Positions 10,401 to 60,983 of a DNA stretch of 64,000 nucleotides are shown one piece after another. The translations under genes and the position numbers were made by a program. Numbering within the stretch: position 1 is the first letter of the stretch; every line of letters starts with the position of its first letter. Where the stretch lies: positions 1,577,693-1,641,692 of the forward strand of contig OZ245758.1 in NCBI GenBank assembly GCA_965227405.1. Reading direction: 5' to 3'. The stretch is from Polyangiales bacterium (GTDB lineage: Bacteria > Myxococcota_A > Polyangia > Polyangiales > Houyiibacteriaceae). Below the pieces are notes generated by a model. That model was given only the letters and a program-made list of their open reading frames with translations, had not been told where the DNA came from and did no database searches.

Positions 10401-11821
10401 TTCGACACGCCACGCGCGGCGGCTGCCTCGGGCGTCTCAAACGGGTCGTACTGACCGGCGCAGGTGGGGTTGAGGGTCTCGCCCGTCTCAGGATCGACGT
10501 GGCAGTAGCAGTAACCCTCAGCGTCGGAGGTCTGGCAGGAGACCGGCGGGTAGACCGCATCGGGCTCGTTACGCAGGTGACGCACCATGCGCATGTAGAC
10601 CTCGTTCCAACGTGCGGTGAGATCGAACGTCGGCTCGACGAGGTGACCCGGAAGCTCGGTGCTCGTGTACCAAACGATCTCGCGGGTGCGGCGATCGGCG
10701 TACGGCGTCGGGCTGCCGTCCTCTTCCACCCAGTCGCGCCAGATGTTCTGACGGTTGGCGTTGTAGTTGAGGAAGTCGGTGCTGCCCCAGGCCGGATCGT
10801 CGGCGCCGGTGCTGCGGTCGAAGGTGCGACGCTCGTTGCGGAAGTAGCCCGCTCGGTTGAAGCGGCTGTCGAGCCAGTTGACCGGCTCGTACTCGCGGGT
10901 GTCGGAGACCTTGAGGAACGCGTTGCGGATGTAGATGGCGGTCGTGGTGCAGGTCGGGGCGTCGCCGTAGATGGACGCACACCAGTTGACCGGGCGACCC
11001 GTGAACGGGTCAGGCACGTTACCCGGGCTGAGAAGCTCCTGGGTCACGAACGAGAAGTGGTAGAACTCGCCGGGCTCGTAGTCTTCGGCGAAATCGCGCT
11101 CTTCGCGGGTACAGGCTTCGGACGTGTCGTCGAGACCCTGGCACTCCATGAAGTCGAAGGTCGGGCGCCAGCTATCCGGGAAGTCGCTCTGGCCCTGGAT
11201 GTAAAGGTCGCTCGGCTCGCGGTTATAGAAACCAATCACCTCGTAGAGGTTGGCGATCTGGCCGTAGTAGGACGGCAGCATGTTCTTCGACCAGTCGACG
11301 CGCATGTAGTCGCGCTCGTACCAGCGTCGGTCGGTCGTGTTCTCTTGGATGACGTTCTGTTCTTCGCCCGTCAGCGTCGAGTACCCACGACGAATGTCGA
11401 AGTGGCTTTCGATTGAGAACGCCGCCACGGGGTGGGTCAACGTCTCGCCCGCCGTCGCTTCACCTTCAGGGTTAATCCCCTCGATGATCTCGTAATCTCG
11501 GTACGCGAAGAGGGTGTCCTCATCGATGACCCAGCGGATGCGGGGCATCGAGGTGTTGAAAATCGCCGGGTCGACAAAGTCGATCGCAGCGTCACCGGGG
11601 TAGGTGCCAACACCGGCGGCTTCGTAGTCGACGTCGATGACGACGCGCGAGTAGTACCAAGAGCCGCTGAAGAGCTGCTTGTCGACAACATTGACGCCGA
11701 CGCGGTTGACCGCGGGGTCTTTGCTGCAGGCGCCAACCAGCAGTGAAATGGTCACCAGCGCTACTGCAGAAGCTAGCGGGGTAACCAACGAACCAAGATG
11801 AGAAATGAACGAGCGCTTCAT
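7427..11821 (-). CDS. Giant secreted zinc metalloprotease (metzincin-like HExxHxxGxxH), paralogue 2
   Basis: 1464 aa. Signal peptide with lipobox (LLVGAC). Motif HEVGHCLGLRHSF. Collinear similarity to 2741-7426, e.g. RVGVNVVDKQLF vs RVQVNLVDKSIF; NTTDRRW(Y/F)ERDYMRVDWS is conserved in both. Confidence 0.75.
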   Translation of the reverse strand: MKRSFISHLGSLVTPLASAVALVTISLLVGACSKDPAVNRVGVNVVDKQLFSGSWYYSRVVIDVDYEAAGVGTYPGDAAIDFVDPAIFNTSMPRIRWVIDEDTLFAYRDYEIIEGINPEGEATAGETLTHPVAAFSIESHFDIRRGYSTLTGEEQNVIQENTTDRRWYERDYMRVDWSKNMLPSYYGQIANLYEVIGFYNREPSDLYIQGQSDFPDSWRPTFDFMECQGLDDTSEACTREERDFAEDYEPGEFYHFSFVTQELLSPGNVPDPFTGRPVNWCASIYGDAPTCTTTAIYIRNAFLKVSDTREYEPVNWLDSRFNRAGYFRNERRTFDRSTGADDPAWGSTDFLNYNANRQNIWRDWVEEDGSPTPYADRRTREIVWYTSTELPGHLVEPTFDLTARWNEVYMRMVRHLRNEPDAVYPPVSCQTSDAEGYCYCHVDPETGETLNPTCAGQYDPFETPEAAAARGVSNPYQCHVQVPEGAQPDMNNPALSDSDFYGWFDAEMVGSECINTLRINTCNRATIEANGGTRDGMNCQERGDLRFKFMSYVDQPGTGFLGVATLRTDPITGEVITGDANIGGPALDGYRTFALQTYDIVNGDIRREDFLIGEDVRDFIENLGNVQPPAIPREEFAPRPTSAESAGFLDRTELFNRMDAFVERGQQLAGPEGRASIFSDRLNTLRGTDIERRLMENHDTLAMAGIDILPDGLGPADINDAILDRVSPFRVSPMERLQYQNDVERRIGEANVYMPNEFTDNSVMEYVIRHRDWPRARLEIELNQTLMYQTQLHEVGHCLGLRHSFKASADNRNYDDNYYYIAENLPLPEPAEFDTDGINGLNPTEQATWEDAYHAMKERRELAGIERWMDSSIMEYTAQWYERTATGTGRYDDMAISYAYGDLVEVYDNAGGLNLDEINPINTDRLWVKSYHGGESCNVDADCPYSTSGANSALLLSSNSTVGLTQTCQPDTRGAAFGNICSNIDADMAALVTGPAPRYAPVEYKFCTDGRVGTDSECHRFDEGDSYREIVRNIAEQYDRQYLFTNFRRYRSSFSLGGYLFNRLIGRQFNILQSMFQDLLYRYTQDPDYRDSTGAFGFDDHFLSTADTLNFYGRIMSQPGLGAYRWDAGWERYQLTSLDPDTAGAQLSLPLGMARYQFSEYQNGISGISRIELIGSFYEKWFTMQMLTQRGWTTSYARDVPFWTNFYDLFPVEMQQIFTGMILGQPEAIAPRVICNSGSFPDCGEPRLVYPDFYRGDCSTPATCRPSVEERFGDELVVSAGSNVTLSFLATVFALSDFPVFFDTTFQNQLFVCQRGNGACFEPNAGDVAYVPGVTDIEDADYATFFSERYGKDFIAWQVEPSEDVPNQTSIGFEMVREAEETQFLLLALQTYRGDFGGDPIDVDNLDAATRDRLDALEYSLPTSISFLDEEVDRNDGRLRQLESQFFQLIQLQNQFGVRSYLRF

Positions 11822-12922: not shown

Positions 12923-14137
12923 CTAAAACGTCTTCGGCTCAGCATCGGGCTTGTTCCGCACGAGCGGCAACACCAATAAATAGAGCGCACTCACGATCGT
13001 GGCGGCCGCGAACACGGGTACATAGCCGTAGTTGTCGCCGACGTAGCCTGCGATCGGCGCTGCTGGGAACTTCCCGAACACCTCCACACTCGCCAAGAGC
13101 GTGTAGTGCGTCGCGCCGATGCGCCGATCCACCCGCGACATCATGAACGCGAACATCACTGTGGTGAGCGCGCCACCGAAGAACGCCTCCGCGCACGTCA
13201 CGGCAATAATCGCAGTGGGCTGAGGATCTCCCGACCACGCCAACCACCACTGCGCGGCATGCGGGATAACGCGGAGCGTCGCCGTGAAGAGCAGCGCATC
13301 CACAAGCCGCATCCGAATCGCCAGCAACCCACCAAAGAGTGAACCACCAAGCGAGCAGATCATCCCCCACGTGCCCAGCCACAGCCCCAGTTGCGCTGGG
13401 GTGTAGCCCGCATCGACGAGGAAAGGACCGAACATCGCATCGGCCATCTTCTCGCCGATCTTGTAGGTGCCGACGACGACCAGCAGTCGCCACGCCCCCG
13501 ACTGAAAGAAGGCCGACTTCAGTCGATCAACAATCTCGCCGACCTTTGCTTGTGCTTCACCCGAACTCGGCGGTTCGCGATGCATGGCGCTGATCGCCAA
13601 TCCGAACAGGACAAGCCCCGCCATGATCCGAAACAGGTTCGCGAACCCCAGAAACCCACTCGCCCAAACCAGCAGACCCCCGCCGACGAGCATCCCGACT
13701 TTGAAGCCCACGACCTGCGCGGTGTTGCCTAGTCCTAGGTGCCGTTCTTCGAGCAAGTCGACGGCAAGACCATCGACAGCGACATCGAGCGTGGCGGCGA
13801 CCAGATTGGCGCTGAAGATCAGTCCCAGCAGAAGTCCCAACGAGTGACTGGGAGGCGCGAACGAGCATCCCAAACACACCAGGGCGAGCAGCAACTGCAG
13901 CGGAAGGATCCAGGAGCGTCGACGGCCCCATCGAGATGAACCGAAACGGTCCACGACGGGAGACCAAAGCGCTTTGAGCAGCCACGGCAGCGCCAAAAGG
14001 TCGAGGAAGCCGATCTCGGTGAGCGACACCCCGGACTCGCGAAGAAAGGCAGGAAGTGCCGCTGCCTGAAAGCCAAAAGGCAGTCCCTGAACGAGATAGA
14101 GGGAGGCGAGCCAAACGATGCGCCGTCCGAGGGACAC
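12923..14137 (-). CDS. MFS transporter, AmpG / acetyl-CoA-transporter-like (PAT) family
   Basis: 404 aa, about 12 TM segments. N-terminal [47 protein letters not shown] is characteristic of AmpG-family permeases. Confidence 0.65.
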
Positions 14138-30054: not shown

Positions 30055-30168
30055 AGGCCAACATTTTTTACCGGAAGTACGAGAAGGCTGGAAGGCGGGA
30101 AGGTTCGGTATCCAAAACCTTCCCGCCTTCCAGCCTTCCCGTGCTTCCGGTTAAAATAGAAGCCCGTT
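30055..30168. mobile_element. Miniature inverted-repeat element (MITE): a left and a right terminal inverted repeat of the IS3-family element at 49638-51003, joined with no transposase gene between them
   Basis: ttttaccggaagtacgagaaggctggaaggcgggaaggtt ... aaccttcccgccttccagccttcccgtgcttccggttaaaa. Each arm is near-identical to the IS end sequence TTAACCGGAAGTGCGGGAAGGCTGGAAGACGAGAAG and its reverse complement. The two arms together form a near-perfect roughly 110-bp palindrome. Confidence 0.75.
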
Positions 30169-46492: not shown

Positions 46493-48829
46493 TCACCGGC
46501 ATCCGAGCTCCTCGTTGCCAGAAAACGGCGAACAGATGTTCGAGGGTCCGGACGTGTCGCAGAGGCAGTTGAAGAACGGAACCGAGTTTCCACACTGCGC
46601 TGCGGGATGGTTGATTTGTGGGTTGTCCCCCACGCACTCACCGAAGCCGACGCCACAGACGAACGGTGGGTTCTCGTACGCGCACGCTGTGAACGCTGGC
46701 TGCGGGGTGGCAACCGCATCGCAGTCGTAGTCGTAACTGTCCGGTACCGGCGCGATGACGATGCAGGACCGGAAACAGCGTGGTGTGCCACCGCACGGAT
46801 ACGTCGCGTTGTGGCCATCGCATCGCGGCTCGGTGAAGTAACGCGTCTGCCCCGGAAATACGTTTCGGTCTGCGTCGTTGCAATCGGTCTTGGGGAAGCC
46901 GCCAAGGCACGCCGCCGTCGAGCGCGCGTACCCGTCGTTGTCCACGTCTTCGGCAACATCGACGCCGCCTCCGCTGCTGCAATCGTTGTCAATTCGATCG
47001 CAAATCTCCGACTCGCCTGGGTTCACGTTGATGTCCCCGTCGTCGCAATCCACGTCCATCCCGACGGGCTCGCGGTCGGTGGTTCCCATCGGACACGCAC
47101 AGACTTGGGTGGCCGTTGCACCCGCCGGTGCATAGTCATCGCGATCCGAATCCGTGTAGCAGGTTGTCAACAACGTCTCGTCCGTGGCGCCATCGCAGTC
47201 TTCGTCCAGACCGTCGCACGCGGTCTCCGTTCCCGCGGGTGGAATCGAGCACGACCCCCACGTTCCCGCAGTGCACGTTTGGATGCCGCCCGCACACACG
47301 CCCAAGAAGCCACCCTCCGAGCACGCACGAGTTTCACCACCCGAGCAGTCGCAAATGCTTGGCGGGTTGCCCGCTCCATCGCAGTCCTCGTCGACCATGG
47401 ATGCGTCGCACACCTCCATGGCATCCGGGTTGATGTTGAACTGACTGTCGTCGCAGTCCGTCTCCGAATCCCCGACCGTACCCGGCTCACGGTTCGTGAA
47501 CGTGAACGGGCAACCACCCACCGCATCACGTCCTGAAACCGTGCAGCGCTTCATGCTTGCGCCACCAGGACCAAACGTATCGTTGTCCGCGTCGACCCAA
47601 CACGTAGCGCTCACACCTTCGTCGATGCTGCCATCGCAATCATCGTCCAGGTCGATCACGGCGCCGTCGATGCAAATCTCCGACGCGCCAGGGTTCACCG
47701 ACGAACGCGTCTCGTCACAATCATCCTCGGTGCCGCCGGGGACGCGGTTCGTGAATCCGATGGGGCACTGTCCGACTTCCGGTCGCCCACTCGCGGGACA
47801 CAGGTTCTCCGCGGCAGCAACGGGAGAGGGGTACGTATCGTTGTCGTCGTCTCGGTAGCAAACGATCGTGAGTCCTTCGTCGATGTCACCCATGCAGTCG
47901 TTGTCGATGCCGTCGCAAATCTCGACCTCGGGCAAGATGCTGCAGGTCGTGCTCCAGGTTCCCGAGTCGCATGTCTCGACGCCCGCCGCACACGCTCCAG
48001 GGAGACTGCATGGGCGCGTTTCTCCCTCGGTACACGCGCAATCCTCGTTGATGGTGCCGTCGCAGTTGTCGTCGACATCCGCGGTCATTTCGCAACGTTC
48101 GGTGACACCCGGGTTGACGCCGGGGACTGTGTCGTCGCAGTCGCCGGGCGTGTCTGAAAACCCATCGGGACGTGCACACGCCAACATCGTGTCGCCGTCC
48201 TCATCACCGAACATGTCTCCGTCCATGTCTTCGTAGTAGGTAACGAGGACACCCTCATCGACGTCGGAGTCGCAATCGTTGTCCAGGGTGTCGCAGACTT
48301 CGGGTGCCGTCGTGTTGACCGTGGAACGCGCGTCGTCGCAGTCGTCACCACAGTTGAGCGTGCCACCGTCCATATTGCAGCACGCGGCGTCGCCTTCGCC
48401 GTCCATGTCTCCGTCACGGAAACCAAACGTGCGGGGATCGCAGTCCTCGTCGCGGTTGTCAGGATCACAGACCTCGGTATTTCCGGGATAGCGATTGGGG
48501 TCGTCGTCGTCGCAATCCGTTCCACCGCACGCCGAATCGGCGGCACCGTCGGCATCCGCGTCGGGACATCCTTCGTCGCACACATCGGCGATTTCGTCGC
48601 AACCCATGGCTGGGCAGGGCGGGTCGCCCGCAACACATCCGTCTGTGCCCGCGGCGGCGTTGTCCGGATCGCACGACTCCTCACCGTTGCAGTAGAGACC
48701 ATCGGCGCACATGTCGTCGCTCATGCAGATGGAGGTCGCATCGTCGCCTCCGTCTCGCGTCATCGACGAGTCGTCATCCCCGCATCCCCACACCACCAAC
48801 GCGAAAACCCACGCGAAACGTCTCGCCAT
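46493..48829 (-). CDS. Large secreted Cys/Asp-rich repeat protein of the myxobacterial 'putative metal-binding motif' (MopE-like) type
   Basis: 778 aa. Signal peptide MARRFAWVFALVVWGCGD. More than 15 repeats of the CDG.DNDCDG.IDEG / CD.DD...NPG form. Confidence 0.75.
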   Translation of the reverse strand: MARRFAWVFALVVWGCGDDDSSMTRDGGDDATSICMSDDMCADGLYCNGEESCDPDNAAAGTDGCVAGDPPCPAMGCDEIADVCDEGCPDADADGAADSACGGTDCDDDDPNRYPGNTEVCDPDNRDEDCDPRTFGFRDGDMDGEGDAACCNMDGGTLNCGDDCDDARSTVNTTAPEVCDTLDNDCDSDVDEGVLVTYYEDMDGDMFGDEDGDTMLACARPDGFSDTPGDCDDTVPGVNPGVTERCEMTADVDDNCDGTINEDCACTEGETRPCSLPGACAAGVETCDSGTWSTTCSILPEVEICDGIDNDCMGDIDEGLTIVCYRDDDNDTYPSPVAAAENLCPASGRPEVGQCPIGFTNRVPGGTEDDCDETRSSVNPGASEICIDGAVIDLDDDCDGSIDEGVSATCWVDADNDTFGPGGASMKRCTVSGRDAVGGCPFTFTNREPGTVGDSETDCDDSQFNINPDAMEVCDASMVDEDCDGAGNPPSICDCSGGETRACSEGGFLGVCAGGIQTCTAGTWGSCSIPPAGTETACDGLDEDCDGATDETLLTTCYTDSDRDDYAPAGATATQVCACPMGTTDREPVGMDVDCDDGDINVNPGESEICDRIDNDCSSGGGVDVAEDVDNDGYARSTAACLGGFPKTDCNDADRNVFPGQTRYFTEPRCDGHNATYPCGGTPRCFRSCIVIAPVPDSYDYDCDAVATPQPAFTACAYENPPFVCGVGFGECVGDNPQINHPAAQCGNSVPFFNCLCDTSGPSNICSPFSGNEELGCR

Positions 48830-48861: not shown

Positions 48862-49530
48862 CTACTGCGCGGCGCGCGCCCCACAGTTGGGGCATTCGGT
48901 GTCGTGCGCCGGAAACGCGTGAGTGCAGTACCGGCAAATCTGGTGACCCGGGCGGGTTTCCTTCCGCACAGCCGTCAACGCGGGCGCTTGCGCGTCGCGT
49001 GCGGTCTGAGCCAGCGCGACTTGGCCGCCGGCAAAATCCGGATCCGTCCACGCTGCGATCTTGCGCAGCTCGGCCACGACCTTTCCGAGATCTTGGTCGT
49101 CGGCGACCGTGTCCATGCTGCGTGTGCTGGTGACCGCAAAGCCAAGCACGACCCCGCCCGGCAGTCCGGTTCGTGCAAGAGTGGGCCCACCCGGAGCTTC
49201 GCGCGCGGGACCGACGAAGACATGGGTTGCGGTTGGTGCTGCGCGAACGAGATCGAGCGCGGCTTCGCGTGCGTCTTGAGCTGTGCGAAGCACCCCGTGC
49301 CGTTGAGCGATATCGCGGACGTACGTTTCGTCGTCGTTGCCTTCAAAGCGAAGGAAGAACACGACTTGGCGCGAGCGTGCAGCGGGAACGGGTGGAGCGG
49401 CTCCAGGAGGCATGGGGTCACGGCTGGGGCTGAGCTGAGCTTTGCGACTGACGATGTAGAACGTCGCGCCCGCGAACACGATGATCACCACAACGCCCGC
49501 GCAGATCAGCAGCTCGCCAAACCCGATCAT
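48862..49530 (-). CDS. Membrane-anchored protein with a C-terminal CxxC...CxxC zinc-ribbon, hypothetical
   Basis: N-terminal TM LLICAGVVVIIVFAGATFYIV. Central soluble domain. Tail CRYCTHAFPAHDTECPNCGA. Confidence 0.5.
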   Translation of the reverse strand: MIGFGELLICAGVVVIIVFAGATFYIVSRKAQLSPSRDPMPPGAAPPVPAARSRQVVFFLRFEGNDDETYVRDIAQRHGVLRTAQDAREAALDLVRAAPTATHVFVGPAREAPGGPTLARTGLPGGVVLGFAVTSTRSMDTVADDQDLGKVVAELRKIAAWTDPDFAGGQVALAQTARDAQAPALTAVRKETRPGHQICRYCTHAFPAHDTECPNCGARAAQ

Positions 49531-49731
49531 GCGAGGAGTCTATACGCAAAACGTCCCGAAGCCGGGAGCGAGAGGGCAAGTCGAGTGGCATAGGCCAGCG
49601 CCGCAAATTGCGAGATGCGCCGCCGGGTTGGCGATATTTTAACCGGAAGTGCGGGAAGGCTGGAAGACGAGAAGATTTCTGGATCCTAAATGGGCCTCCC
49701 TCGCTTTCGTTGACACCGCCTTGGAGGTGTC

Positions 49732-50063
49732 ATGGGCTCAAGAAGATCGAGAAGGAATAGTCGTTACTCGGCTGAGTTTCGCGCTGAAGCGGTGAAACTC
49801 GTCCTGCGAAGCGACGACACGTTTGCTGTGCTGGCGGAACGCCTCGGCGTGAATCGAGGCACGCTCTACAGCTGGTACCGTGATGAGATGGCTCGGAAGA
49901 AACCGAAAAAGAAGCGGACGGCGACGAGTTAAGAGACGCCCGAGGAGGAGTTGCAACGGTTGCGGCGTGAGGTGAAGCGTCTGCAACGGAAACTCGACTC
50001 CGCGGAAGAGGACAAGGTCATCCTAAAAAAGCCGCGGCCTTCTTTGCGCGCGAAAGCGAATGA
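49732..50063 (+). pseudogene. IS3-family transposase OrfA (HTH + leucine zipper), interrupted
   Basis: HTH segment SAEFRAEAVKLVLRSDDTFAVLAERLGVNRGTLYSWYRD. In-frame TAA at 49930-49932 precedes the leucine-zipper segment LQRLRREVKRLQRKLDSAEEDKVILKK. The conserved C-terminus AAAFFARESE-TGA lies in the -1 frame relative to the HTH, after the A6G tract at 50025-50031. Confidence 0.65.
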
Positions 50064-50932
50064 GATTTGCTTTCATTCACGCAGAGAAGGCAAACCACTC
50101 AATCGCTCGTCTCTGTCGCGTCCTTCAGGTCACGCGTGCCGGGTACTACGCGTGGAGAGATCGAGGGCCGAGTCGGACTGAAACGCGTCGACGACGCGTC
50201 GAAGAACTTGTTCAACTCATCTTCCTCGCGAGCTACCAAACGTACGGTAGTCCGCGCGTGTTGGCGGAGTTGCGCGAGACGTATGGGATACGAGTCTCCA
50301 AACGCACCGTTGAAAACGCCATGAAAACACTGGGGATCCAAGCGCGGAAGCGAAAGCGTTTTCGAAACACCACAGAACGCGATGAGACGCGGCCTGTTGT
50401 AGCAAACATACTCGACCGCGACTTTGCGGCGTCACGACCGAACGAAAAATGGGTCAGCGACATCACGTACATTCAGACCGCAAAAGGCTGGTCGTACCTC
50501 GCAGTGATCCTGGATCTGTTCTCACGCAAAGTCGTTGGCTGGTCATTGCGTAGCGACCTCACAACCGAGCTGGTGCTCAGCGCTTTCAATGCGGCGCTGA
50601 TTTCTCGCGCGCCAGAGGAAGAGCTCGTTCACCACTCCGATCGAGGCAGGCAGTACACAAGCTATGCATTCGAACTTGCGGCCACTCAAGCGGGAGTACG
50701 TCTGAGCATGAGTCGCAAAGGCAACTGCTGGGACAACGCGGTCGCGGAGTCGTTCTTCAGCACGCTCAAACAAGAACTCATCTCGCGTCGCACTTGGCGA
50801 GACGAGCAGGATGTCCGGAGTGCGCTCTTCGAGTACATCGAAGTCTTTTACAACCGGGAACGACGTCACTCGACGCTTGGGTACGTCTCCCCAGAGCAGT
50901 TCGAACTAAACCACGCGGCGTTTGTCGCATAG
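50060..50932 (+). CDS. IS3-family transposase OrfB (rve/DDE integrase core)
   Basis: 290 aa. Core regions DITYI...GWSYLAVILDLFSRKVVGW, HHSDRGRQYTS, GNCWDNAVAESFFSTLKQE. Its ATG overlaps the TGA of the orfA C-terminal frame (ATGA). Confidence 0.85.
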   Translation: MRFAFIHAEKANHSIARLCRVLQVTRAGYYAWRDRGPSRTETRRRRVEELVQLIFLASYQTYGSPRVLAELRETYGIRVSKRTVENAMKTLGIQARKRKRFRNTTERDETRPVVANILDRDFAASRPNEKWVSDITYIQTAKGWSYLAVILDLFSRKVVGWSLRSDLTTELVLSAFNAALISRAPEEELVHHSDRGRQYTSYAFELAATQAGVRLSMSRKGNCWDNAVAESFFSTLKQELISRRTWRDEQDVRSALFEYIEVFYNRERRHSTLGYVSPEQFELNHAAFVA

Positions 50933-51049
50933 GTGTCAACGAAACTGAGGGAACCCCAAAACCTTCCCGTCTTCCAGCCTTCCCGTACTTCCGGTTAAAA
51001 AAATCGAACCACCAAGCTCTTTGCACGCTTCGAAAAATGAAAAGCCTGC

Positions 51050-52813
51050 TCAGCGAGTTGCACTCGGAGACATCAGCGCAGCAGCTTGCTTCGCGTCTTC
51101 CCGCGCACGCACCCGATCGCCCAACGCTCGATGCACATCCGCGCGCAGAGCCAAACAAGCCGCAAGCTCCGCTCGATGCGCGCTGCTTCGCGACAGCTTT
51201 CGGACCAACGCCCCTAGCGCACTCAGCGCGTCCTCGTGCTGCTCCAGGTCGTAGAGCAGCGCAGCGCGTTCCCGTGCCGCCCCGATCTGCGCTGCACGTA
51301 GTCGCGCATCGCCTTTGCGGAAACGCTCCAAGATGTCGTCATACACCTCAAGCCCCGCACCCAACCGGTGGTCCGCGACCAACGCGCGTGCCTTCAACAC
51401 CAACAAACGCTGATGGGCACGCGGCATGCTCTTGAGCTGCGATCCCAACGCATCAAGCGCCTCGTCGACCGCCTGCAACGCCTTTCGAAAGTGCCCCTGC
51501 CGGTACACCGCCGCACAACGCGCGATCTGCACGTTCGCCACGCGCCCTTTTCGAACCGGCGCCGATGGCCGCTCGGCGATCACCCGCAAGAACGCTTCAT
51601 GGATCCGCAGGTCCTCCGTCGCGTTGCGACCGCCACGTGAAACCGCGGGCCACAACGCGTCCAACAACGCCTTGAGCTGAGGCTTCTTCCACGACCGCAA
51701 CTTGGCCGCGTTCGCGCGACGCGCCGCCAACGCGTAGCGACCTCGTCGAACCGCATCGCGAACGCTCTCAATCGTCTTGTCTGCACCCCGAAGGTCTTCA
51801 CCTGCCAACTCGGCAGCATGGCGAATACGCCGGATGACATCTTCGAAGTAGTACACGTCTGGCTGCGAACCCGTGGGACGCGCAGGTGCACTCGCTTCTA
51901 AGCGTTCGGCGAGAAACCCCAGCGGATCCCGCGTGAGCGGTGGTGCATCGGCTTTGAACACGCGCAGCAGTTCGTCGAACACCCGATCCGCGGCGAGCGG
52001 TTCGTCGTCGTCCGGCACCACGAAACACACGTTCGAGTGTTTTCGCAGCCACTTGGGCAACGACTCGACTCCCGCTGCGCGATAGCAAAACCAGTAGAGC
52101 TGATGTTTGAGTGGCTTGCGCAGGCGCTTGCGCAGCGCCTTCATGATCACGTCGCCTTCCCAACCCGAATAGCCCAACACGAGTGGCGAACGCGCACGCA
52201 ACACGTCGTCGAGCAAGTCGCTCATGCCCGAACCGCCGTAGCCTTTGGCGCGCTGTTCGATCTCGTCGTCGGTGTTGATCAGGTCATAGAACCAGTACGA
52301 CCCGTGAACGTGCACGATGCGAACGTCGGGACCTTCCAAGTCGATCCGCGCAGTCGTTGCAGGGTGGTCACACACCACATGCGGCACACCAAAGAGATGC
52401 AGTGCACGACTGCAAAAGTCGTCGAAGTTCGGGGTAACCAACAGACGCGTTAGCCCACCATCGACGAGGAGATGCGCGAGCCGCAGGTTTGCGTCCGTGA
52501 GCGGCTGGCCTTCGATCTTGTCGCGAAAGAACGCGCGCCGTTGATCCGGATCCGGATAGGCCTGCTCCAACCAATACGAGTACCCTCCCGCGGGGTCGCT
52601 CGGTGCATCGCCGCTGGCCAACCCGAGGTCTTCAGCACGACGCCGACACTCTTGCTCGATCTGCCACGCCAGCGGAACGCTCGGTACCGAGATCCCCGCA
52701 CCGCAAAGCAGGAAGAAGGGGCTGGTCGATCGCGTCCCCGCACGACTCTCCCGAATGCGAGCGGCGGCGGTTTTGAGGTTGATGAGCTTGGCCATTGTAT
52801 TGGGATCACCCAT
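51050..52813 (-). CDS. SIR2-like (SIR2_2 family) domain protein with a C-terminal alpha-helical, TPR-like region; candidate defence-associated NADase
   Basis: N-terminal half carries SIR2_2 landmarks in order: FFLLCGAGISVPS (GAG nucleotide-binding start), LLVTPNFDDFCSRAL (TNYD-like), IVHVHGSYWFYD (HGS), LVLGYSGWEGDVIMKAL (GYS..D). The C-terminal about 280 aa is helical with A/R/L-rich repeats. The gene abuts the IS3 element. Confidence 0.6.
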   Translation of the reverse strand: MGDPNTMAKLINLKTAAARIRESRAGTRSTSPFFLLCGAGISVPSVPLAWQIEQECRRRAEDLGLASGDAPSDPAGGYSYWLEQAYPDPDQRRAFFRDKIEGQPLTDANLRLAHLLVDGGLTRLLVTPNFDDFCSRALHLFGVPHVVCDHPATTARIDLEGPDVRIVHVHGSYWFYDLINTDDEIEQRAKGYGGSGMSDLLDDVLRARSPLVLGYSGWEGDVIMKALRKRLRKPLKHQLYWFCYRAAGVESLPKWLRKHSNVCFVVPDDDEPLAADRVFDELLRVFKADAPPLTRDPLGFLAERLEASAPARPTGSQPDVYYFEDVIRRIRHAAELAGEDLRGADKTIESVRDAVRRGRYALAARRANAAKLRSWKKPQLKALLDALWPAVSRGGRNATEDLRIHEAFLRVIAERPSAPVRKGRVANVQIARCAAVYRQGHFRKALQAVDEALDALGSQLKSMPRAHQRLLVLKARALVADHRLGAGLEVYDDILERFRKGDARLRAAQIGAARERAALLYDLEQHEDALSALGALVRKLSRSSAHRAELAACLALRADVHRALGDRVRAREDAKQAAALMSPSATR

Positions 52814-52928: not shown

Positions 52929-54365
52929 ATGAGCGTTCGCGTCCGCTTCGCCCCAAGTCCGACTGGTTTTCTGCACATCGGCGGCGTGCGCACGGCCTTG
53001 TACACCTGGCTGTGGGCTCGCAAGCACGACGGCAAGTTGGTGCTCCGTATCGAGGACACCGACGTTGCACGCAACACGCAGGAAGCCGTCGATGCCGTGC
53101 TCGAATCGATGCGTTGGCTGGGTTTGGATTGGGATGAAGGCCCCGACGTGGGCGGTCCGCACGAGCCCTACTTTCAGGGCGAGCGCACCGACATCTACCG
53201 ACAAGAGGCCGAGAAGCTGATCGCCAGTGGACACGCGTTTCGTTGCTTCGCGACCAAGGAAGAGATCGCAGAGCTGCGCGCCGCGTACGAGAAGGAACAC
53301 GGCAAGAAGGGTTTTCGCTTTCGTTCGCCATGGCGCGACCGAACCGACGGTGATGCGAGCCAGCCACACAGCATTCGCTTCAAAGCACCGGCGGACGGGA
53401 AGACCGGATGGGACGACTTGGTCTATGGGCGCGTCGAGTACCCCAACGCGGAACAGCAAGACTTTGTGATCCTGCGCCCCAACGGCCTGCCGCTCTACAA
53501 CTTTGCCTGCTACGTCGACGACAAACTCATGGGCATCACCTTGGTGACCCGTGGCGAGGACCATCTCGTCAACACACCACAACAGCTGCTCTTGTTCGAT
53601 GCTGCGGGTGCCGATCGTCCGCAGTACGCGCACCTTCCGCTGATCAACGGCGCGGACGGCAAGAAACTCGGCAAGCGACACGCGTCGGTGGCCGCATTGG
53701 CCTATCGCGACAACGGATTCCTGCCCGACGGCTTGCTCAACTACCTGGCGCGTTTGGGCTGGTCGCACGGCGACGACGAGATCTTCACGCGTGCGGACCT
53801 CATCGAGAAGTTCGACTGGAAGTCCGTGGGCAAGAAAGCCAGTACGTGGGACGAGAAGAAACTTCAACACGTGCAGGGCACTCACCTGCGCATGGTCGAC
53901 GACACCAAGCTCGCCGAAATGGTCGCTCCGCTTCTACGAGAGCGCGGACTCGATGTACCCGCGGACAACGCGCGTTTGATCGCCGCGATCGCGCCGGTGA
54001 AGTTGCGTGCGACCACGCTGCACGACTTGGCCAACGACTTGGATTACTTCTTCCGCGCCGACGATGAGCTGCAGTACGAGGAGAAAGGTTCCAAGAAGTT
54101 CCTCAAGCCTGACTACGCGCCCAACTTGGAGAAGCTGGCGGACATCGTCGAACAGGCGGATCCGTTCAACGAAGCCACGCTCGAGGAAAAGATCCACGCG
54201 TGGATGGAAGCCGAGTCGCTCAAGATGAAGGTCGTCGCACAGCCTGCGCGTATGGCACTGAGCGGACGCACGCGTAGCCCCGGTTTGTACGAGACCATTG
54301 TGCTGATCGGTCAGGAGCGAGCGGTGAAGCGTCTGCGCAAGGGCGCCGCCATGGCGAAGGGATGA
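52929..54365 (+). CDS. gltX: Glutamate--tRNA ligase
   Basis: 478 aa. Class I HIGH motif (PSPTGFLHIGGVRTA). KLGKRH, a KMSKS-like motif. Collinear with bacterial GltX. Confidence 0.9.
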   Translation: MSVRVRFAPSPTGFLHIGGVRTALYTWLWARKHDGKLVLRIEDTDVARNTQEAVDAVLESMRWLGLDWDEGPDVGGPHEPYFQGERTDIYRQEAEKLIASGHAFRCFATKEEIAELRAAYEKEHGKKGFRFRSPWRDRTDGDASQPHSIRFKAPADGKTGWDDLVYGRVEYPNAEQQDFVILRPNGLPLYNFACYVDDKLMGITLVTRGEDHLVNTPQQLLLFDAAGADRPQYAHLPLINGADGKKLGKRHASVAALAYRDNGFLPDGLLNYLARLGWSHGDDEIFTRADLIEKFDWKSVGKKASTWDEKKLQHVQGTHLRMVDDTKLAEMVAPLLRERGLDVPADNARLIAAIAPVKLRATTLHDLANDLDYFFRADDELQYEEKGSKKFLKPDYAPNLEKLADIVEQADPFNEATLEEKIHAWMEAESLKMKVVAQPARMALSGRTRSPGLYETIVLIGQERAVKRLRKGAAMAKG

Positions 54366-58659: not shown

Positions 58660-59787
58660 GTGAGCGCGCCGCCCAAACCGCCAAAGTCGTACGACCGCGA
58701 GGGTGGACAGAAGGTCAAGCTCGCTCGCTACGCGCGTTGGTTTGGCGTCTTTCTCATGGTGCTGACGGTCTTGGCGTGGCTCTTTCTGCAGGACCGTCCC
58801 GCCGTCTCACGGAGTCAGTTGCGCGATGCGGTCGAGTGGGCGGAGTCCGTCCAATGGGAGCCGTGCGAACGTCCCGTGCTCTTTGGCGAAGCGATTGCGG
58901 GAGAAGGCACAGACCTGCTCCAGCGGGTGTTTGAAGCCAACGGTTGTCTCGACGAAACCTGCAGCACGTTGCGACGAGCGGTGCAGCACGAACGAGTCTG
59001 TTCACCGCAACGTCCCGCAGATGGACCGTGGCTCGAGGACGTGGTCGCGCGCATCCGGGCAATCGACGATCCACGCGAGAAGCTCGAGATCGGTTTTGCT
59101 GCACTACGCGCGGTCGATGACACCCGTCGCGGCGAACAGCGAGCGTTCAACTTCATTCCCCCTGACACCTCAAGCGTGCACGGGGAAATGGTCGGACTCG
59201 TACGGTTTCATCCTGAACTCATGCGAGACCCAGCCGTTCAGCGCGCTGCAAATACGCTTCGCGACACCTCACCACCAACGCATCGTTTCATCCCACAACG
59301 GCATGCGGGCATTATCTTGGGCCCGCTGGAGCGGGGGAGAATTCGTCCTCAGTCGCACACTCCCTATCCGCGCGCGGGCGCCGTGTCGCTGGCCATTCTA
59401 GGAAAGCGGGTGCAACGATGTGCCGAGTTTGAGTGTGTCCGAGCGGCGCTTCGTGGACGAATGGCGCGTGACGAACCGGGAGCGTGGAGCGTGCTTCTCC
59501 AAGGTCCGCGCGCGCGCGGTGCAACGCTGATTGCGGACACAACAAACATCGTGCTGCTTTCACTGGCCGAGGATGTCGAAGTGCTCGCAGCACATCGGTC
59601 TTCGCAACGCATGCTCGCGGTGCAGATCATGATGCGGGCGGACCCGTGCCGACCTGTTGCTGAGGTCATCACGGCCGAAACCGGACTGGTTCATGTGCCT
59701 GAAGAAGATGGCGTCGGAGCCATCCGCGATCCCGTAACCGGTTTCGAAGCGCCCGTGGAGTACTGCCACGAGGGGCTGCATCGATGA
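58660..59787 (+). CDS. Membrane-anchored hypothetical protein, paralogue A (tandem pair downstream of GT2)
   Basis: N-terminal TM (RYARWFGVFLMVLTVLAWLFL). Conserved block AVEWAES..EPCERPVLFGEAI...GC.DETCSTL.RAVQHERVCSP is shared with paralogue B. Confidence 0.55.
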   Translation: MSAPPKPPKSYDREGGQKVKLARYARWFGVFLMVLTVLAWLFLQDRPAVSRSQLRDAVEWAESVQWEPCERPVLFGEAIAGEGTDLLQRVFEANGCLDETCSTLRRAVQHERVCSPQRPADGPWLEDVVARIRAIDDPREKLEIGFAALRAVDDTRRGEQRAFNFIPPDTSSVHGEMVGLVRFHPELMRDPAVQRAANTLRDTSPPTHRFIPQRHAGIILGPLERGRIRPQSHTPYPRAGAVSLAILGKRVQRCAEFECVRAALRGRMARDEPGAWSVLLQGPRARGATLIADTTNIVLLSLAEDVEVLAAHRSSQRMLAVQIMMRADPCRPVAEVITAETGLVHVPEEDGVGAIRDPVTGFEAPVEYCHEGLHR

Positions 59788-60983
59788 ACGAGTCCAAAAC
59801 CCGAGACGGTGGCGAGCGCGCTGCAGCCGCTCGATACGCTCGATGGAGCGGAGTTCTGCTCATTGCACTCTGCGTCGTGAGCTGGGCGATCGTGTCGGCC
59901 CGCCCAGGAGTCTCCGACGAAGTGTTGCACGAGGCCGTGCGTTGGGCAGAGTCGGCGCCGCGAACACCATGCGAGCGCCCACCGCTGTTCGGAGACGCAC
60001 TGCCCGGCACGGGCTCTCTGCGCACGCTCGTGGAACGCGGTTGCACAGATGCGCGATGCAGCACGCTTCTGCATGCCGTCCAGCACGAGCGTGTGTGTGC
60101 GCCGGAGCGACACCAGAGTTCACGATGGATCGACGGCATCTTGGAGCGTCTGCCCGCCTCCCGATCACCCAGCGAACGCCTGCGATTGATCATGCACGCA
60201 CACCGAGCCATGGATGACTTCCGTAGAGGTGAGCAGCGGGCGTTTCCGCGTCCCTACGACCTGCGCGAACTGGCCTCGGCAACCCAGTCGGTATGGCGCC
60301 AAGCGCGCGAGCTGACGGATGTCGATGGACTCGTTGCTGCGGCCGAAACCCTGGTGGCGACGTCACCCGATGCCACGTTTCTGATCGGACGAAATGCAGG
60401 CGAGGTGCTCTGGGGATTTCAACGAGGTGAAATTGCACCTGGCCCGAACGCACCTCATCCGCGTGCGACTACAGTTGCTCTCGCGCACCTTGGACAGGGG
60501 ATTCAGCGATGCGAACTGCCCTGCGGAGAGGCATGGACTTGGGACGAATGCTCCCGGTTCGCGTGCGTTTCAACGTACCTGAGCACACGGCCAAACGCAG
60601 ATCCCGTCTCGAGGTGGCAGGCACTCGTCCGCGGGCCACGTGCGTACGGCCCCAGTTGGATCGTCGGCAACACGCAATTCGTCGGCGCGCAGTTGAACCA
60701 CCACCTGCGTGGGTTCGAGCAACAACGTTCGCTCGAACGGCTCTTGCTCACGGCACTTCGGCTCCGAGAGTTGGGTGAGTGTTCCACGGGAATCGAGCAA
60801 GTCGTGCAGCTCGGAGAGGTCATCGCACGGACATCGAGTTCTGCGCGGCTTCGAATGCACGCGCACGACGTCCCTTTCGAAGTGCACATCGAAACCAGCA
60901 ACTCTGCGTTATGGATTCGAGACTCGGTGCCCAACGGTCCAGCCCTGCGCGTCGAACTTTGTTTGGAAGAATCGGTCCGGTGA
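59784..60983 (+). CDS. Membrane-anchored hypothetical protein, paralogue B
   Basis: Its ATG overlaps the stop of paralogue A as ATGA. Same N-terminal TM and Cys block (AVRWAES..TPCERPPLFGDAL...GCTDARCSTLLHAVQHERVCAP). Confidence 0.55.
   Translation: MNESKTRDGGERAAAARYARWSGVLLIALCVVSWAIVSARPGVSDEVLHEAVRWAESAPRTPCERPPLFGDALPGTGSLRTLVERGCTDARCSTLLHAVQHERVCAPERHQSSRWIDGILERLPASRSPSERLRLIMHAHRAMDDFRRGEQRAFPRPYDLRELASATQSVWRQARELTDVDGLVAAAETLVATSPDATFLIGRNAGEVLWGFQRGEIAPGPNAPHPRATTVALAHLGQGIQRCELPCGEAWTWDECSRFACVSTYLSTRPNADPVSRWQALVRGPRAYGPSWIVGNTQFVGAQLNHHLRGFEQQRSLERLLLTALRLRELGECSTGIEQVVQLGEVIARTSSSARLRMHAHDVPFEVHIETSNSALWIRDSVPNGPALRVELCLEESVR

What the first reader, a model, noticed from the sequence alone, without database searches (positions are those of the whole stretch)
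51050..52813. Stand-alone SIR2_2-like protein with a C-terminal helical (TPR-like) domain beside an IS element: candidate single-gene anti-phage/abortive-infection module
The N-terminal half carries the ordered SIR2_2 landmarks (GAG start, TNYD-like, HGS, GYS..D) that are typical of defence-associated sirtuins such as ThsA and DSR-type proteins. The C-terminal half is an A/R/L-rich helical repeat region that could act as a sensor. The gene sits between an IS3 element and gltX, diverging from housekeeping genes, a context typical of small defence islets. At 587 aa it is shorter than described DSR1/DSR2 (about 1000 aa), and no partner gene (ThsB, HerA) is present, so it may be an undescribed SIR2-helical-repeat architecture.
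Basis: partly seen in the sequence, partly recalled or inferred. Interest (0 to 1): 0.6.

Follow-up and report, generated by a model that had tools for sequence, protein, structure and literature searches.

The report
Chromosomal SIR2–TPR fusion protein
The gene is a real fusion of a defence-type SIR2 (NAD-consuming) domain to a TPR repeat domain. It is not on a mobile defence islet: it is a long-resident gene of this myxobacterial lineage, as conserved as the essential gene next to it, and its function is untested.

Summary

The protein has no Zn module, no P-loop, no APAZ and no SLOG. No partner gene is conserved across 80 related loci.

The "defence islet beside an IS" reading is not supported:
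- The gene lies in the same M16-M16-p222 … gltX neighbourhood in relatives at 62-83% identity, three of them without any IS.
- One relative carries a different IS family at the same intergenic site.
- Its dS (1.10) and dN/dS (0.115) match gltX and the M16 genes.
- Its GC3 is native.
- The immediate neighbours of 31 homologues are housekeeping-type genes.

At large scale the family is patchy across phyla: 417 clusters at 50% identity, mostly with longer TPR arrays. It is rarely on a plasmid or viral contig.

My best reading is a single-protein, TPR-gated NAD+ hydrolase whose trigger, phage or endogenous, is unresolved. It is uncharacterised, a new variant of a known kind, and of moderate interest.

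The parts
51050..52813 (-). SIR2_2-TPR coding sequence, 587 aa. An alternative start at 52795 gives 581 aa.
   Evidence: ORF list. Homologues of 83-100% identity and the same length. Homologue starts align to Met7.
51944..52792 (-). SIR2_2 (SIRim-type) Rossmann domain, residues about 8-290. It has no Zn-binding module.
52688..52702 (-). G38-A-G-I-S42 dinucleotide-binding loop
   Evidence: G38, G40 and S42 are invariant in 74 and in 47 homologues.
52418..52435 (-). T127-P-N129-F-D-D132 motif, with the predicted catalytic Asn
   Evidence: Invariant. Aligns to TTNFDD of SPARSA Sir2-APAZ.
52301..52312 (-). H168-V-H170-G171. H170 (52304-52306) is the predicted catalytic His. The invariant Y-W-F-Y-D loop that follows has low model confidence.
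   Evidence: Invariant. Aligns to the IHG motif of Sir2-APAZ. pLDDT is below 50 at residues 173-176.
52151..52174 (-). G214-Y-S-G-W-E-G-D221 motif
   Evidence: Invariant or nearly invariant. Aligns to GYSGRDEN of Sir2-APAZ.
51614..51943 (-). Helical neck conserved across the whole family, residues 291-400. It carries invariant P291, P297, Y321 and R356 and the VRDAxRR motif, and leads into the repeat array.
   Evidence: Alignment A2. Helices in the model. About 34% identity to distant members, against 18% for the array.
51053..51613 (-). Variable TPR solenoid, residues 401-587. Together with the neck it makes 13 helices (323-586). An M463-P-R-A466 / R469 / R476 patch is invariant within the myxobacterial clade.
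49691..50958 (+). IS3-family insertion sequence. It is a secondary insertion and not part of the SIR2 module. orfA carries a premature TAA at 49930.
   Evidence: rve, HTH_21 and rve_3 domains. Terminal inverted repeats and AAA target duplication. About 56% GC against about 62% in the flanks. Absent at this site in L001, L008 and L015.
49637..51000 (.). Long palindromic intergenic repeat, split by the IS3. The arms are at 49637-49678 and 50959-51000.
   Evidence: 42-nt arms, 93% complementary. An intact copy lies at 30065-30156.
48862..49530 (-). p222: a membrane-anchored zinc-ribbon protein and the conserved neighbour on the side away from gltX. It is the first gene of the p222-M16-M16 cluster.
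   Evidence: Adjacent to the SIR2 gene in L001, L007, L008 and L015. No Pfam match. Heads an M16 pair without SIR2 in L101.
52929..54365 (+). gltX (glutamyl-tRNA synthetase), the divergent housekeeping neighbour used as the rate yardstick
   Evidence: tRNA-synt_1c in the syntenic loci. 84% and 68% identity in L007 and L001. dN/dS 0.128.

Best explanation
The gene encodes a single-polypeptide sensor-effector. The N-terminal part is a SIR2_2 ('SIRim') domain with a complete NAD+-binding and catalytic site. A helical neck conserved across the family joins it rigidly to a six-repeat TPR solenoid.

The most likely mechanism, inferred and not shown, is that the enzyme rests in an inactive state. A protein or peptide ligand then binds the concave TPR surface. 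That binding switches on NAD+ hydrolysis, either allosterically or by driving oligomerisation. The result would be lower cellular NAD+ and arrested growth. This is the logic shown for DSR2 (solenoid plus SIR2), and for ThsA, KomC, Avs5 and SPARSA.

What is shown here is that, in this lineage, the gene is a stably and vertically inherited chromosomal gene under housekeeping-grade purifying selection. It is not a recently acquired islet. The adjacent IS3 is an unrelated late insertion into an intergenic palindrome.

Whether the activating ligand is viral or endogenous is unresolved. I put anti-phage at about 0.35-0.4 and an endogenous trigger (stress or development) at about 0.3.
For: Domain identity and active site:
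- Pfam SIR2_2.
- The best PADLOC hits are pAgo-associated SIR2 models, at 5.8e-20 and 8.5e-16.
- A family profile hits SPARSA Sir2-APAZ structures at 5e-13, with motif-for-motif alignment.
- The catalytic Asn and His and the Gly-rich loops are invariant in 74 and in 47 homologues from many phyla.

Fold:
- AF2 gives pLDDT 91.6 and pTM 0.89, so the two domains are modelled as one rigid body.
- Foldseek's best matches are full-length DSR2 (E=3e-9), then ThsA and KomC.

Stand-alone status:
- All-against-all clustering of ORFs from 80 loci finds no neighbour family shared beyond lineage-level synteny.
- There is no Walker A motif and no CxxC motif.

Sensor-like behaviour of the C-terminus:
- The SIR2 domain is about 49% identical to distant members, the neck 34% and the array 18%.
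- Array length varies from 570 to 999 aa in the aligned sample and beyond 1400 aa in the library search.

Vertical inheritance.

Background knowledge: all biochemically characterised bacterial SIR2_2 proteins are NADases, and the subfamily lacks the Zn module needed for deacetylation (PMC12700824; bioRxiv 10.1101/2024.09.18.613514).
Against: - No biochemical or phage data exist for any member of this clade.
- The model coordinates could not be inspected, so autoinhibition and the ligand site are not demonstrated.
- Against the immune version, synteny is conserved and the evolutionary rates equal those of gltX and the M16 genes.
- Also against it, dN/dS of the TPR part is only 0.18, with no sign of diversifying selection, although dS of about 1 is near saturation.
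- The ±2-gene neighbourhoods of 31 homologues hold 204 different Pfam families, none in more than 3 proteins, and these are mostly metabolic or regulatory. The few PADLOC hits are mostly generic kinase-type models; mad6 and MkoA account for two proteins each.
- No full-length PADLOC model matches.
Confidence: 0.5

Rival explanations
1. One reading: a recently acquired, mobile, single-gene abortive-infection module sitting in a small defence islet delimited by the IS3 element and gltX.
For: - It is a SIR2_2-type effector with a repeat sensor and no partner gene.
- An IS element is adjacent.
- At large scale the family is patchy across phyla, including one archaeon.
- One member lies on a Priestia plasmid and one on an IMG/VR contig.
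- The M16-to-gltX interval varies in content between relatives: MopE protein, SMI1, PTH2 and IS elements.
Against: - The gene is present in the same interval in every syntenic relative examined, at 62-83% identity, with or without an IS.
- Two different IS families hit the same intergenic site independently.
- dS is 1.10, against 0.58-1.40 for the flanking genes. dN/dS is 0.115, against 0.128 for gltX.
- GC and GC3 are native, while the IS is GC-poor.
- There are no integrase, restriction-modification, toxin-antitoxin or other defence genes in the surrounding window genes scanned.
Confidence: 0.12
2. A domesticated, non-immune SIR2_2 enzyme. The TPR domain would recruit an endogenous protein or peptide. 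The SIR2 domain would then modify it (ADP-ribosylation) or tune NAD+ levels, as part of normal physiology such as stress response, development or programmed cell death in a myxobacterium.
For: - Conservation is of core-gene grade, with synteny among housekeeping genes and purifying selection equal to that on an aminoacyl-tRNA synthetase.
- A surface patch in the TPR (MPRA, R469, R476) is invariant across the myxobacterial clade, which suggests one constant ligand.
- Acidobacterial homologues also sit among housekeeping genes: IF2-RbfA-AccD-FolC and M16-UbiD.
- M16 peptidase pairs recur within 10 kb of family members in about four independent lineages.
Against: - No non-immune function is known for any bacterial SIR2_2 protein.
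- No conserved partner or substrate gene was found.
- The distribution across phyla is patchy and the TPR arrays are highly variable, which is more typical of accessory or conflict genes.
- Some defence genes are also stably inherited, so conservation alone does not decide the matter.
Confidence: 0.3
3. A canonical sirtuin-like protein lysine deacylase with a TPR substrate adaptor.
For: The SIR2 superfamily fold and the catalytic His are present.
Against: - There is no hit to the canonical SIR2 family. It matches only SIR2_2.
- There is no Cys4 Zn module: no CxxC motif among its 8 Cys. That module is required for deacetylation by canonical sirtuins (PMC12700824).
- All the nearest structures are NADases.
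Confidence: 0.04
4. A catalytically inert scaffold: a TPR adaptor that retains a dead SIR2 fold.
For: No activity data exist. The loop after the catalytic His is modelled with low confidence.
Against: Every NAD-binding and catalytic motif is invariant across phyla, and dN/dS of the SIR2 domain is 0.085.
Confidence: 0.04

Closest known systems
DSR2 (defence-associated sirtuin 2, Bacillus subtilis; PDB 8wy8, 8k9a and others)
   Same: A single polypeptide with an N-terminal SIR2_2 NADase domain followed by an all-helical repeat solenoid that acts as the sensor. It is the best Foldseek match for the whole model, at E=3e-9.
   Different: - DSR2 is about 1000 aa, with a MID domain and a HEAT-like C-terminal domain. 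This protein is 587 aa with a TPR array.
- Identity is only 11-16%.
- No PADLOC DSR model matched at E≤1.
- By sequence, the SIR2 domain here is closer to pAgo-associated SIR2.
- DSR2 is a sporadic defence gene, whereas this gene is vertically conserved.
SPARSA Sir2-APAZ (short pAgo-associated SIR2; PDB 8in8, 8jkz, 8k87)
   Same: It is the closest characterised SIR2 domain by sequence. The PADLOC pAgo/Aga_SIR2 models score 5.8e-20 to 8.5e-16. The family profile scores 5e-13 with aligned catalytic motifs. The protein lengths are also similar, at about 585 aa.
   Different: There is no APAZ domain: the C-terminus is TPR. No Argonaute gene is present in the window or in any of the 80 loci. Nucleic-acid guidance is therefore not expected.
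Thoeris ThsA and Kongming KomC
   Different: There is no SLOG or Macro sensor domain, no ThsB/TIR gene and no KomA/KomB partner. No PADLOC ThsA model matched.
Avs5 / SIR2-STAND, and eukaryotic SIR2-NACHT/NB-ARC-TPR proteins (SIRim clade A, SAMD9/9L)
   Different: The central STAND NTPase switch is missing. There is no Walker A motif and no NTPase Pfam hit. Activation cannot be nucleotide-driven.
PADLOC candidate PDC-S65
   Same: A single-gene candidate whose model is about 590 positions long and starts with a SIR2 domain. It matches at E=1.8e-11.
   Different: Only positions 34-259 of the 592 profile positions align. The C-terminal halves are unrelated, so this protein is not a member. I found no published description.

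Membership tests
SIR2_2 / SIRim subfamily of the sirtuin superfamily | Match to Pfam PF13289 above the gathering score | tested here: met
   44.7 bits against a 24.5-bit cut-off, E=1.9e-11.
SIR2_2 / SIRim subfamily of the sirtuin superfamily | Rossmann fold with conserved NAD+-pocket residues (Gly-rich loop, catalytic Asn, catalytic His) and no Zn-binding module | tested here: met
   G38/G40/S42, N129 and H170 are invariant and align to Sir2-APAZ motifs. Fold matches to DSR2, ThsA and KomC. No CxxC motif.
SIR2_2 / SIRim subfamily of the sirtuin superfamily | NAD+ hydrolase activity | not testable with these tools
   This needs a biochemical assay.
DSR2 | Match to DSR2 sequence models, and the roughly 1000-aa SIR2-MID-CTD (HEAT-like) architecture | tested here: not met
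   No DSR model among the PADLOC hits at E≤1. The protein is 587 aa and its C-terminus is TPR. Only a structural resemblance is seen, at 11-16% identity.
DSR2 | Activation by a phage tail tube protein | not testable with these tools
   Experimental.
Thoeris (ThsA/ThsB) | ThsA with a SLOG or Macro sensor domain, plus an adjacent TIR-domain ThsB gene | tested here: not met
   No SLOG, Macro or TIR hit. The neighbours are the IS3 element, p222 and gltX.
SPARSA (short pAgo + Sir2-APAZ) | APAZ domain fused to SIR2, and an adjacent short Argonaute gene | tested here: not met
   The PADLOC pAgo/Aga models and the PDB Sir2-APAZ sequence align only over the SIR2 domain, residues about 51-263. The C-terminus is TPR. 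No conserved neighbour gene exists.
SIR2-HerA | Adjacent HerA-type ATPase/helicase gene | tested here: not met
   No such gene in the window neighbourhood or as a recurrent neighbour in 80 loci.
Avs5 / SIR2-STAND | Central STAND P-loop NTPase between the SIR2 domain and the repeats | tested here: not met
   No Walker A motif, no NTPase Pfam hit, and the model shows SIR2 leading directly into helical repeats.
PDC-S65 (PADLOC candidate) | Full-length match to the PDC-S65 profile | tested here: not met
   Only profile positions 34-259 of 592 are matched.
Canonical sirtuin deacylases (Pfam SIR2, CobB-like) | Match to the canonical SIR2 family, and a Cys4 Zn-binding module | tested here: not met
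   Only SIR2_2 is hit. No CxxC pairs.
Defence-island gene (operational criterion) | Enrichment of known defence or mobile genes in the neighbourhood; sporadic presence among close relatives | tested here: not met
   The ±2-gene neighbours of 31 loci are heterogeneous housekeeping types. The few PADLOC hits are mostly generic kinase-type models; mad6 and MkoA account for two proteins each. The gene is present at the syntenic site in all four related lineages examined. Caveat: the sample is small and there is no formal background control.

The most novel reading that the evidence does not exclude
In this Sandaracinus-like myxobacterial clade, a SIRim-type NADase has been domesticated into a core, non-immune function. 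One example would be a TPR-gated NAD+ switch for stress, development or programmed cell death, possibly linked to the neighbouring p222-M16 peptidase cluster. That would be the first bacterial SIR2_2 protein with a housekeeping or developmental role, and a bacterial parallel to the co-option of SIRim proteins in animals.
Probability: 0.25. Interest if true: 0.65.

Novelty: new variant of a known kind. Interest (0 to 1): 0.4.

Why it matters
Every characterised bacterial SIR2_2 enzyme is an anti-phage NADase that relies on a separate sensor: SLOG, APAZ/Ago, a HEAT-like solenoid, a STAND NTPase or HerA.

A compact SIR2-TPR fusion with no NTPase switch would be the simplest repeat-sensor plus NADase design known. 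It would be a tractable model for how a TPR array gates a sirtuin fold.

The family is sizeable, at 417 clusters at 50% identity, and it is absent from the named defence catalogues.

The unusual point is evolutionary. In this lineage the gene behaves like a core gene, with the same dS and dN/dS as gltX. Either an immune sensor is being maintained under unusually stable selection, or a SIRim enzyme has been co-opted for cell physiology. Both outcomes can be tested with one knockout and one NAD+ assay.

Tried and rejected
- NCBIfam gave no hit. A single-sequence search against PDB sequences gave none; only the family profile reached Sir2-APAZ.
- I looked for a partner gene. All-against-all clustering of 4271 ORFs from 80 loci plus the window found nothing shared beyond lineage-level synteny.
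- I tested whether p222 and the Rce1-like gene recur next to the acidobacterial homologue in L014. They are unrelated proteins. The 209-aa gene next to the acidobacterial M16 pair is a HEAT protein, not a p222 homologue.
- The UbiA and UbiD adjacency proved to be confined to one subclade each.
- The recurrence of M16 pairs (9 of 81 loci, about 4 independent lineages) is suggestive but too weak to build on.
- Mobile-element searches found one plasmid copy, one IMG/VR contig and no family-level phage hits. The BFVD fold search returned only generic TPR proteins.
- Rfam and tRNA scans of the window were empty. The promoter and terminator scan was not above chance.
- I could not name the source organism. 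Exact look-ups show a 9.07-Mb NCBI contig, but no name or accession came back.
- The afdb50 fold library was unavailable.
- Literature searches for 'SIR2-TPR' and 'PDC-S65' found nothing.
Full report
**1. The observation**

Close homologues begin at the Met that corresponds to residue 7, so the real start may be at base 52795.

Pfam gives SIR2_2 (PF13289) at 44.7 bits against a 24.5-bit cut-off, plus one sub-threshold TPR_2 hit. They are invariant in a 74-sequence alignment spanning several phyla and in a 47-sequence alignment of the N-terminal part.

The IS3 element is real (rve/HTH_21 transposase; inverted repeats and a 3-bp duplication). So is the divergent gltX.

**2. Anatomy**

An AlphaFold2 model built on 74 homologues is confident, with mean pLDDT 91.6 and pTM 0.89. 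It has three parts:
- a Rossmann-type SIR2 domain, residues about 8-290;
- a helical neck;
- 13 helices from residue 323 to 586.

The only weak spot inside the domain is the loop at residues 173-176 (Y-W-F-Y). It directly follows the catalytic His and is invariant across the myxobacterial clade, with Y176-D177 invariant family-wide.

By sequence, the nearest characterised SIR2 domains are those associated with short Argonautes. The PADLOC pAgo/Aga_SIR2 models score 5.8e-20 to 8.5e-16. A family profile hits the Sir2-APAZ structures 8in8 and 8jkz at 5e-13, aligning TPNFDD with TTNFDD, HVHG with KIHG, and GYSGWEGD with GYSGRDEN.

There is no Walker A motif and no CxxC zinc module. There is also no SLOG, Macro, APAZ or NTPase hit. 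The protein is therefore an effector-plus-repeat fusion with nothing in between.

**3. The family**

The word-indexed search found near-identical and 83-87% identical proteins. It also found about 30 myxobacterial proteins of the same length at 48-66% identity (Sandaracinus, Polyangiales, 'Polyangiaceae LLY-WYZ-15'). Beyond these were hundreds of proteins at 34-40% identity and 570-1000 aa that carry canonical TPR arrays.

An exhaustive HMMER scan of 1.84 billion cluster representatives used residues 1-400 as the query. It gave 417 clusters at E≤1e-30, 598 at E≤1e-10 and 1969 at E≤1e-3. This is a discrete clade within SIR2_2.

Identity to the distant members falls along the protein: 49% in the SIR2 domain, 34% in the neck and 18% in the array.

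In GTDB species representatives, two very specific peptide patterns recovered 115 relatives. Twelve are Myxococcota at 55-65% identity. The rest are mainly Acidobacteriota. Scattered hits come from Planctomycetota, Nitrospirales, Bacillota, Burkholderiales, Bacteroidota, Deinococcota and Verrucomicrobiota, plus one Methanococcoides MAG.

One member is on a Priestia megaterium plasmid, where it stands alone at 837 aa. One is on an IMG/VR contig. There are none at family level in sequenced phages.

At large scale the family is therefore patchy and occasionally mobile.

**4. Context in this lineage**

The window order is M16b(-) M16a(-) MopE-protein(-) p222(-) | IS3 | SIR2(-) | gltX(+) Rce1-like(+) … GT2(+).

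| Relative | SIR2 identity | Arrangement | IS at the site |
|---|---|---|---|
| L007 | 83% | Same order and orientation, without the MopE gene | ISL3 element with an 8-bp duplication, not IS3 |
| L015 | 65% | gltX(-) … SIR2(+) followed 22 bp later by p222(+) | none |
| L001 | 65% | SIR2 beside p222-M16-M16 in inverted orientation; gltX-Rce1 on the other side | none |
| L008 | 62% | SIR2 beside p222-M16-M16 in inverted orientation; no gltX | none |

Protein identities of SIR2 track those of its neighbours:
- L007: SIR2 82.7%, gltX 84.1%, M16 79-81%, p222 85.5%.
- L001: SIR2 64.8%, gltX 68.1%, M16 54-55%.
- L008: SIR2 61.8%, M16 44-51%.

Between the window and L007 the substitution rates also match:

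| Gene or region | dS | dN/dS |
|---|---|---|
| SIR2, whole | 1.10 | 0.115 |
| SIR2 domain | - | 0.085 |
| TPR part | - | 0.18 |
| gltX | 0.89 | 0.128 |
| M16 pair | 1.07-1.40 | 0.115-0.118 |
| p222 | 1.05 | 0.09 |

GC (0.60-0.65) and GC3 (0.71) are native, whereas the IS has about 56% GC.

The wider window holds ordinary myxobacterial chromosomal genes: Ser/Thr kinase, DUF7107, proteases and UvrD. They are in the same order as in L007 and L008.

The gene has therefore been co-inherited with its housekeeping neighbours since these lineages diverged, under equal constraint. The IS elements are late, independent insertions. The window IS3 sits inside a palindromic repeat with 42-nt arms, of which an intact copy lies at 30065-30156.

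More distant orthologues (57-60% identity) lie in other contexts, next to UbiA or a 421-aa kinase. p222-M16-M16 also exists without SIR2 next to it. This is the ordinary erosion of synteny.

**5. Is it in defence islands elsewhere?**

Two acidobacterial homologues on long contigs sit among housekeeping-type genes. One is near IF2, RbfA, AccD and FolC. The other is near CN-hydrolase, PAD and α2-macroglobulin genes.

I scanned the two genes on either side of 31 homologues (124 proteins) against Pfam and PADLOC. This gave 204 Pfam families, none hit by more than three proteins. The top ones are histidine kinases, radical SAM, UbiD, MFS and Pkinase.

PADLOC hits were essentially the generic kinase models (PD-T4-6), with mad6 and MkoA hit by two proteins each.

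This sample is small and has no formal background control. Even so, it shows no sign of the defence-island enrichment reported for SIR2_2 proteins in general (12-fold; bioRxiv 10.1101/2024.09.18.613514).

**6. Mechanism**

*Shown here:*
- a complete, invariant NAD-binding and catalytic site on a defence-type SIR2_2 fold with no Zn module;
- a TPR array packed rigidly on it;
- a stand-alone gene;
- strong purifying selection.

*From the literature:*
- Characterised bacterial SIR2_2 proteins (ThsA, DSR1/2, SIR2-HerA, SPARSA, Avs5, KomC) are NADases switched on by ligand binding, oligomerisation or both.
- The Zn module that SIR2_2 proteins lack is needed for deacetylation (PMC12700824).

*Inferred:* a ligand bound by the TPR activates NAD+ hydrolysis.

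I give this gated-NADase mechanism about 0.5. Within it, the trigger is open. The family's patchy distribution and variable arrays point to conflict. This lineage's core-like behaviour, and the TPR patch invariant across the clade (M463-P-R-A466, R469, R476), point to a constant and possibly endogenous ligand.

**7. Comparison with known systems and novelty**

It works most like DSR2, being SIR2 plus a helical-repeat sensor in one chain. Its catalytic domain is most like that of SPARSA Sir2-APAZ.

It is not a member of DSR1/2, Thoeris, SPARSA, SIR2-HerA, Avs5 or PDC-S65. In each case a defining feature was tested and not met (see the membership table).

SIR2_2 proteins with TPR fusions are visible in databases and as labels in a published tree. 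I found no functional work on them.

I file it as a new variant of a known kind.

**8. Verdict**

- Observation: confirmed.
- Interpretation: partly supported. The architecture and the stand-alone status hold.
- Interest: moderate, 0.4. It is a sizeable, uncharacterised and minimal SIR2-sensor design. Its core-gene behaviour in this clade is the one surprising element.

Noticed in passing
window 30065-30156; 49637-49678 with 50959-51000: A family of long palindromic intergenic repeats of about 92 nt (41-42-nt arms, loop of about 10 nt). One copy is intact. The other is split by the IS3 element, which inserted at the junction of the loop and the right arm. This looks like a REP-like or MITE-like element, or a large bidirectional terminator, that may attract insertion sequences.
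   Followed up: partly
L007 11790-13145, compared with window 49637-51000: In the 83%-identical relative, an ISL3-family element (8-bp duplication AAGTTAAT) occupies the same SIR2-p222 intergenic spot. It sits next to a different long palindrome at 13068-13145. Two IS families have hit the same intergenic site independently.
   Followed up: partly
window 49733-50060: The IS3 orfA has an in-frame TAA at 49930, upstream of the A-AAA-AAG frameshift site near 50026. The element is therefore probably defective.
   Followed up: no
window 46493-48829 (-): A 778-aa Cys-rich protein with eight MopE-type metal-binding repeats lies between p222 and the M16 pair in this genome only. It is absent at that position in L007, L001 and L008. 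A 42%-identical segment occurs in the MopE protein near the SIR2 orthologue in L004.
   Followed up: partly
window 48862-49530 (-); L101 8001-8660: p222 has an N-terminal membrane helix and a C-terminal CxxC…CxxC zinc ribbon, with no Pfam match. It consistently heads an M16-M16 peptidase pair in this clade, including where no SIR2 gene is nearby. It is an uncharacterised conserved companion of M16 peptidases.
   Followed up: partly
L073 4005-11989; L081 3538-11962; L094 43-6145; L026 3972-8119; L043; L093: M16 peptidase pairs lie within 10 kb of SIR2-TPR genes in 9 of 81 loci, representing about four independent lineages. Examples are the Acidobacteriota order M16-M16-HEAT-UbiD-SIR2TPR and the Polyangiales order SIR2 followed by M16-M16. 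This is more than my rough chance estimate of about 1, but it is weak and unexplained.
   Followed up: partly
window 58660-59787 and 59784-60983 (+): Two tandem paralogous genes of unknown function, with no Pfam match, correspond to a single gene in L007 (46% and 36% identity). This is a lineage-specific duplication.
   Followed up: no
window 2741-7426 and 7427-11821 (-): Two adjacent very large genes (1561 and 1464 aa, GC3 0.81-0.85) carry only a short Met-zincin (DUF4953) signature. They are probably secreted metalloproteases.
   Followed up: no
L035 and L044: Two SIR2-TPR paralogues come from the same Acidobacteriota MAG (MFD04408.bin.3.357), so some genomes carry more than one copy of the family.
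   Followed up: no
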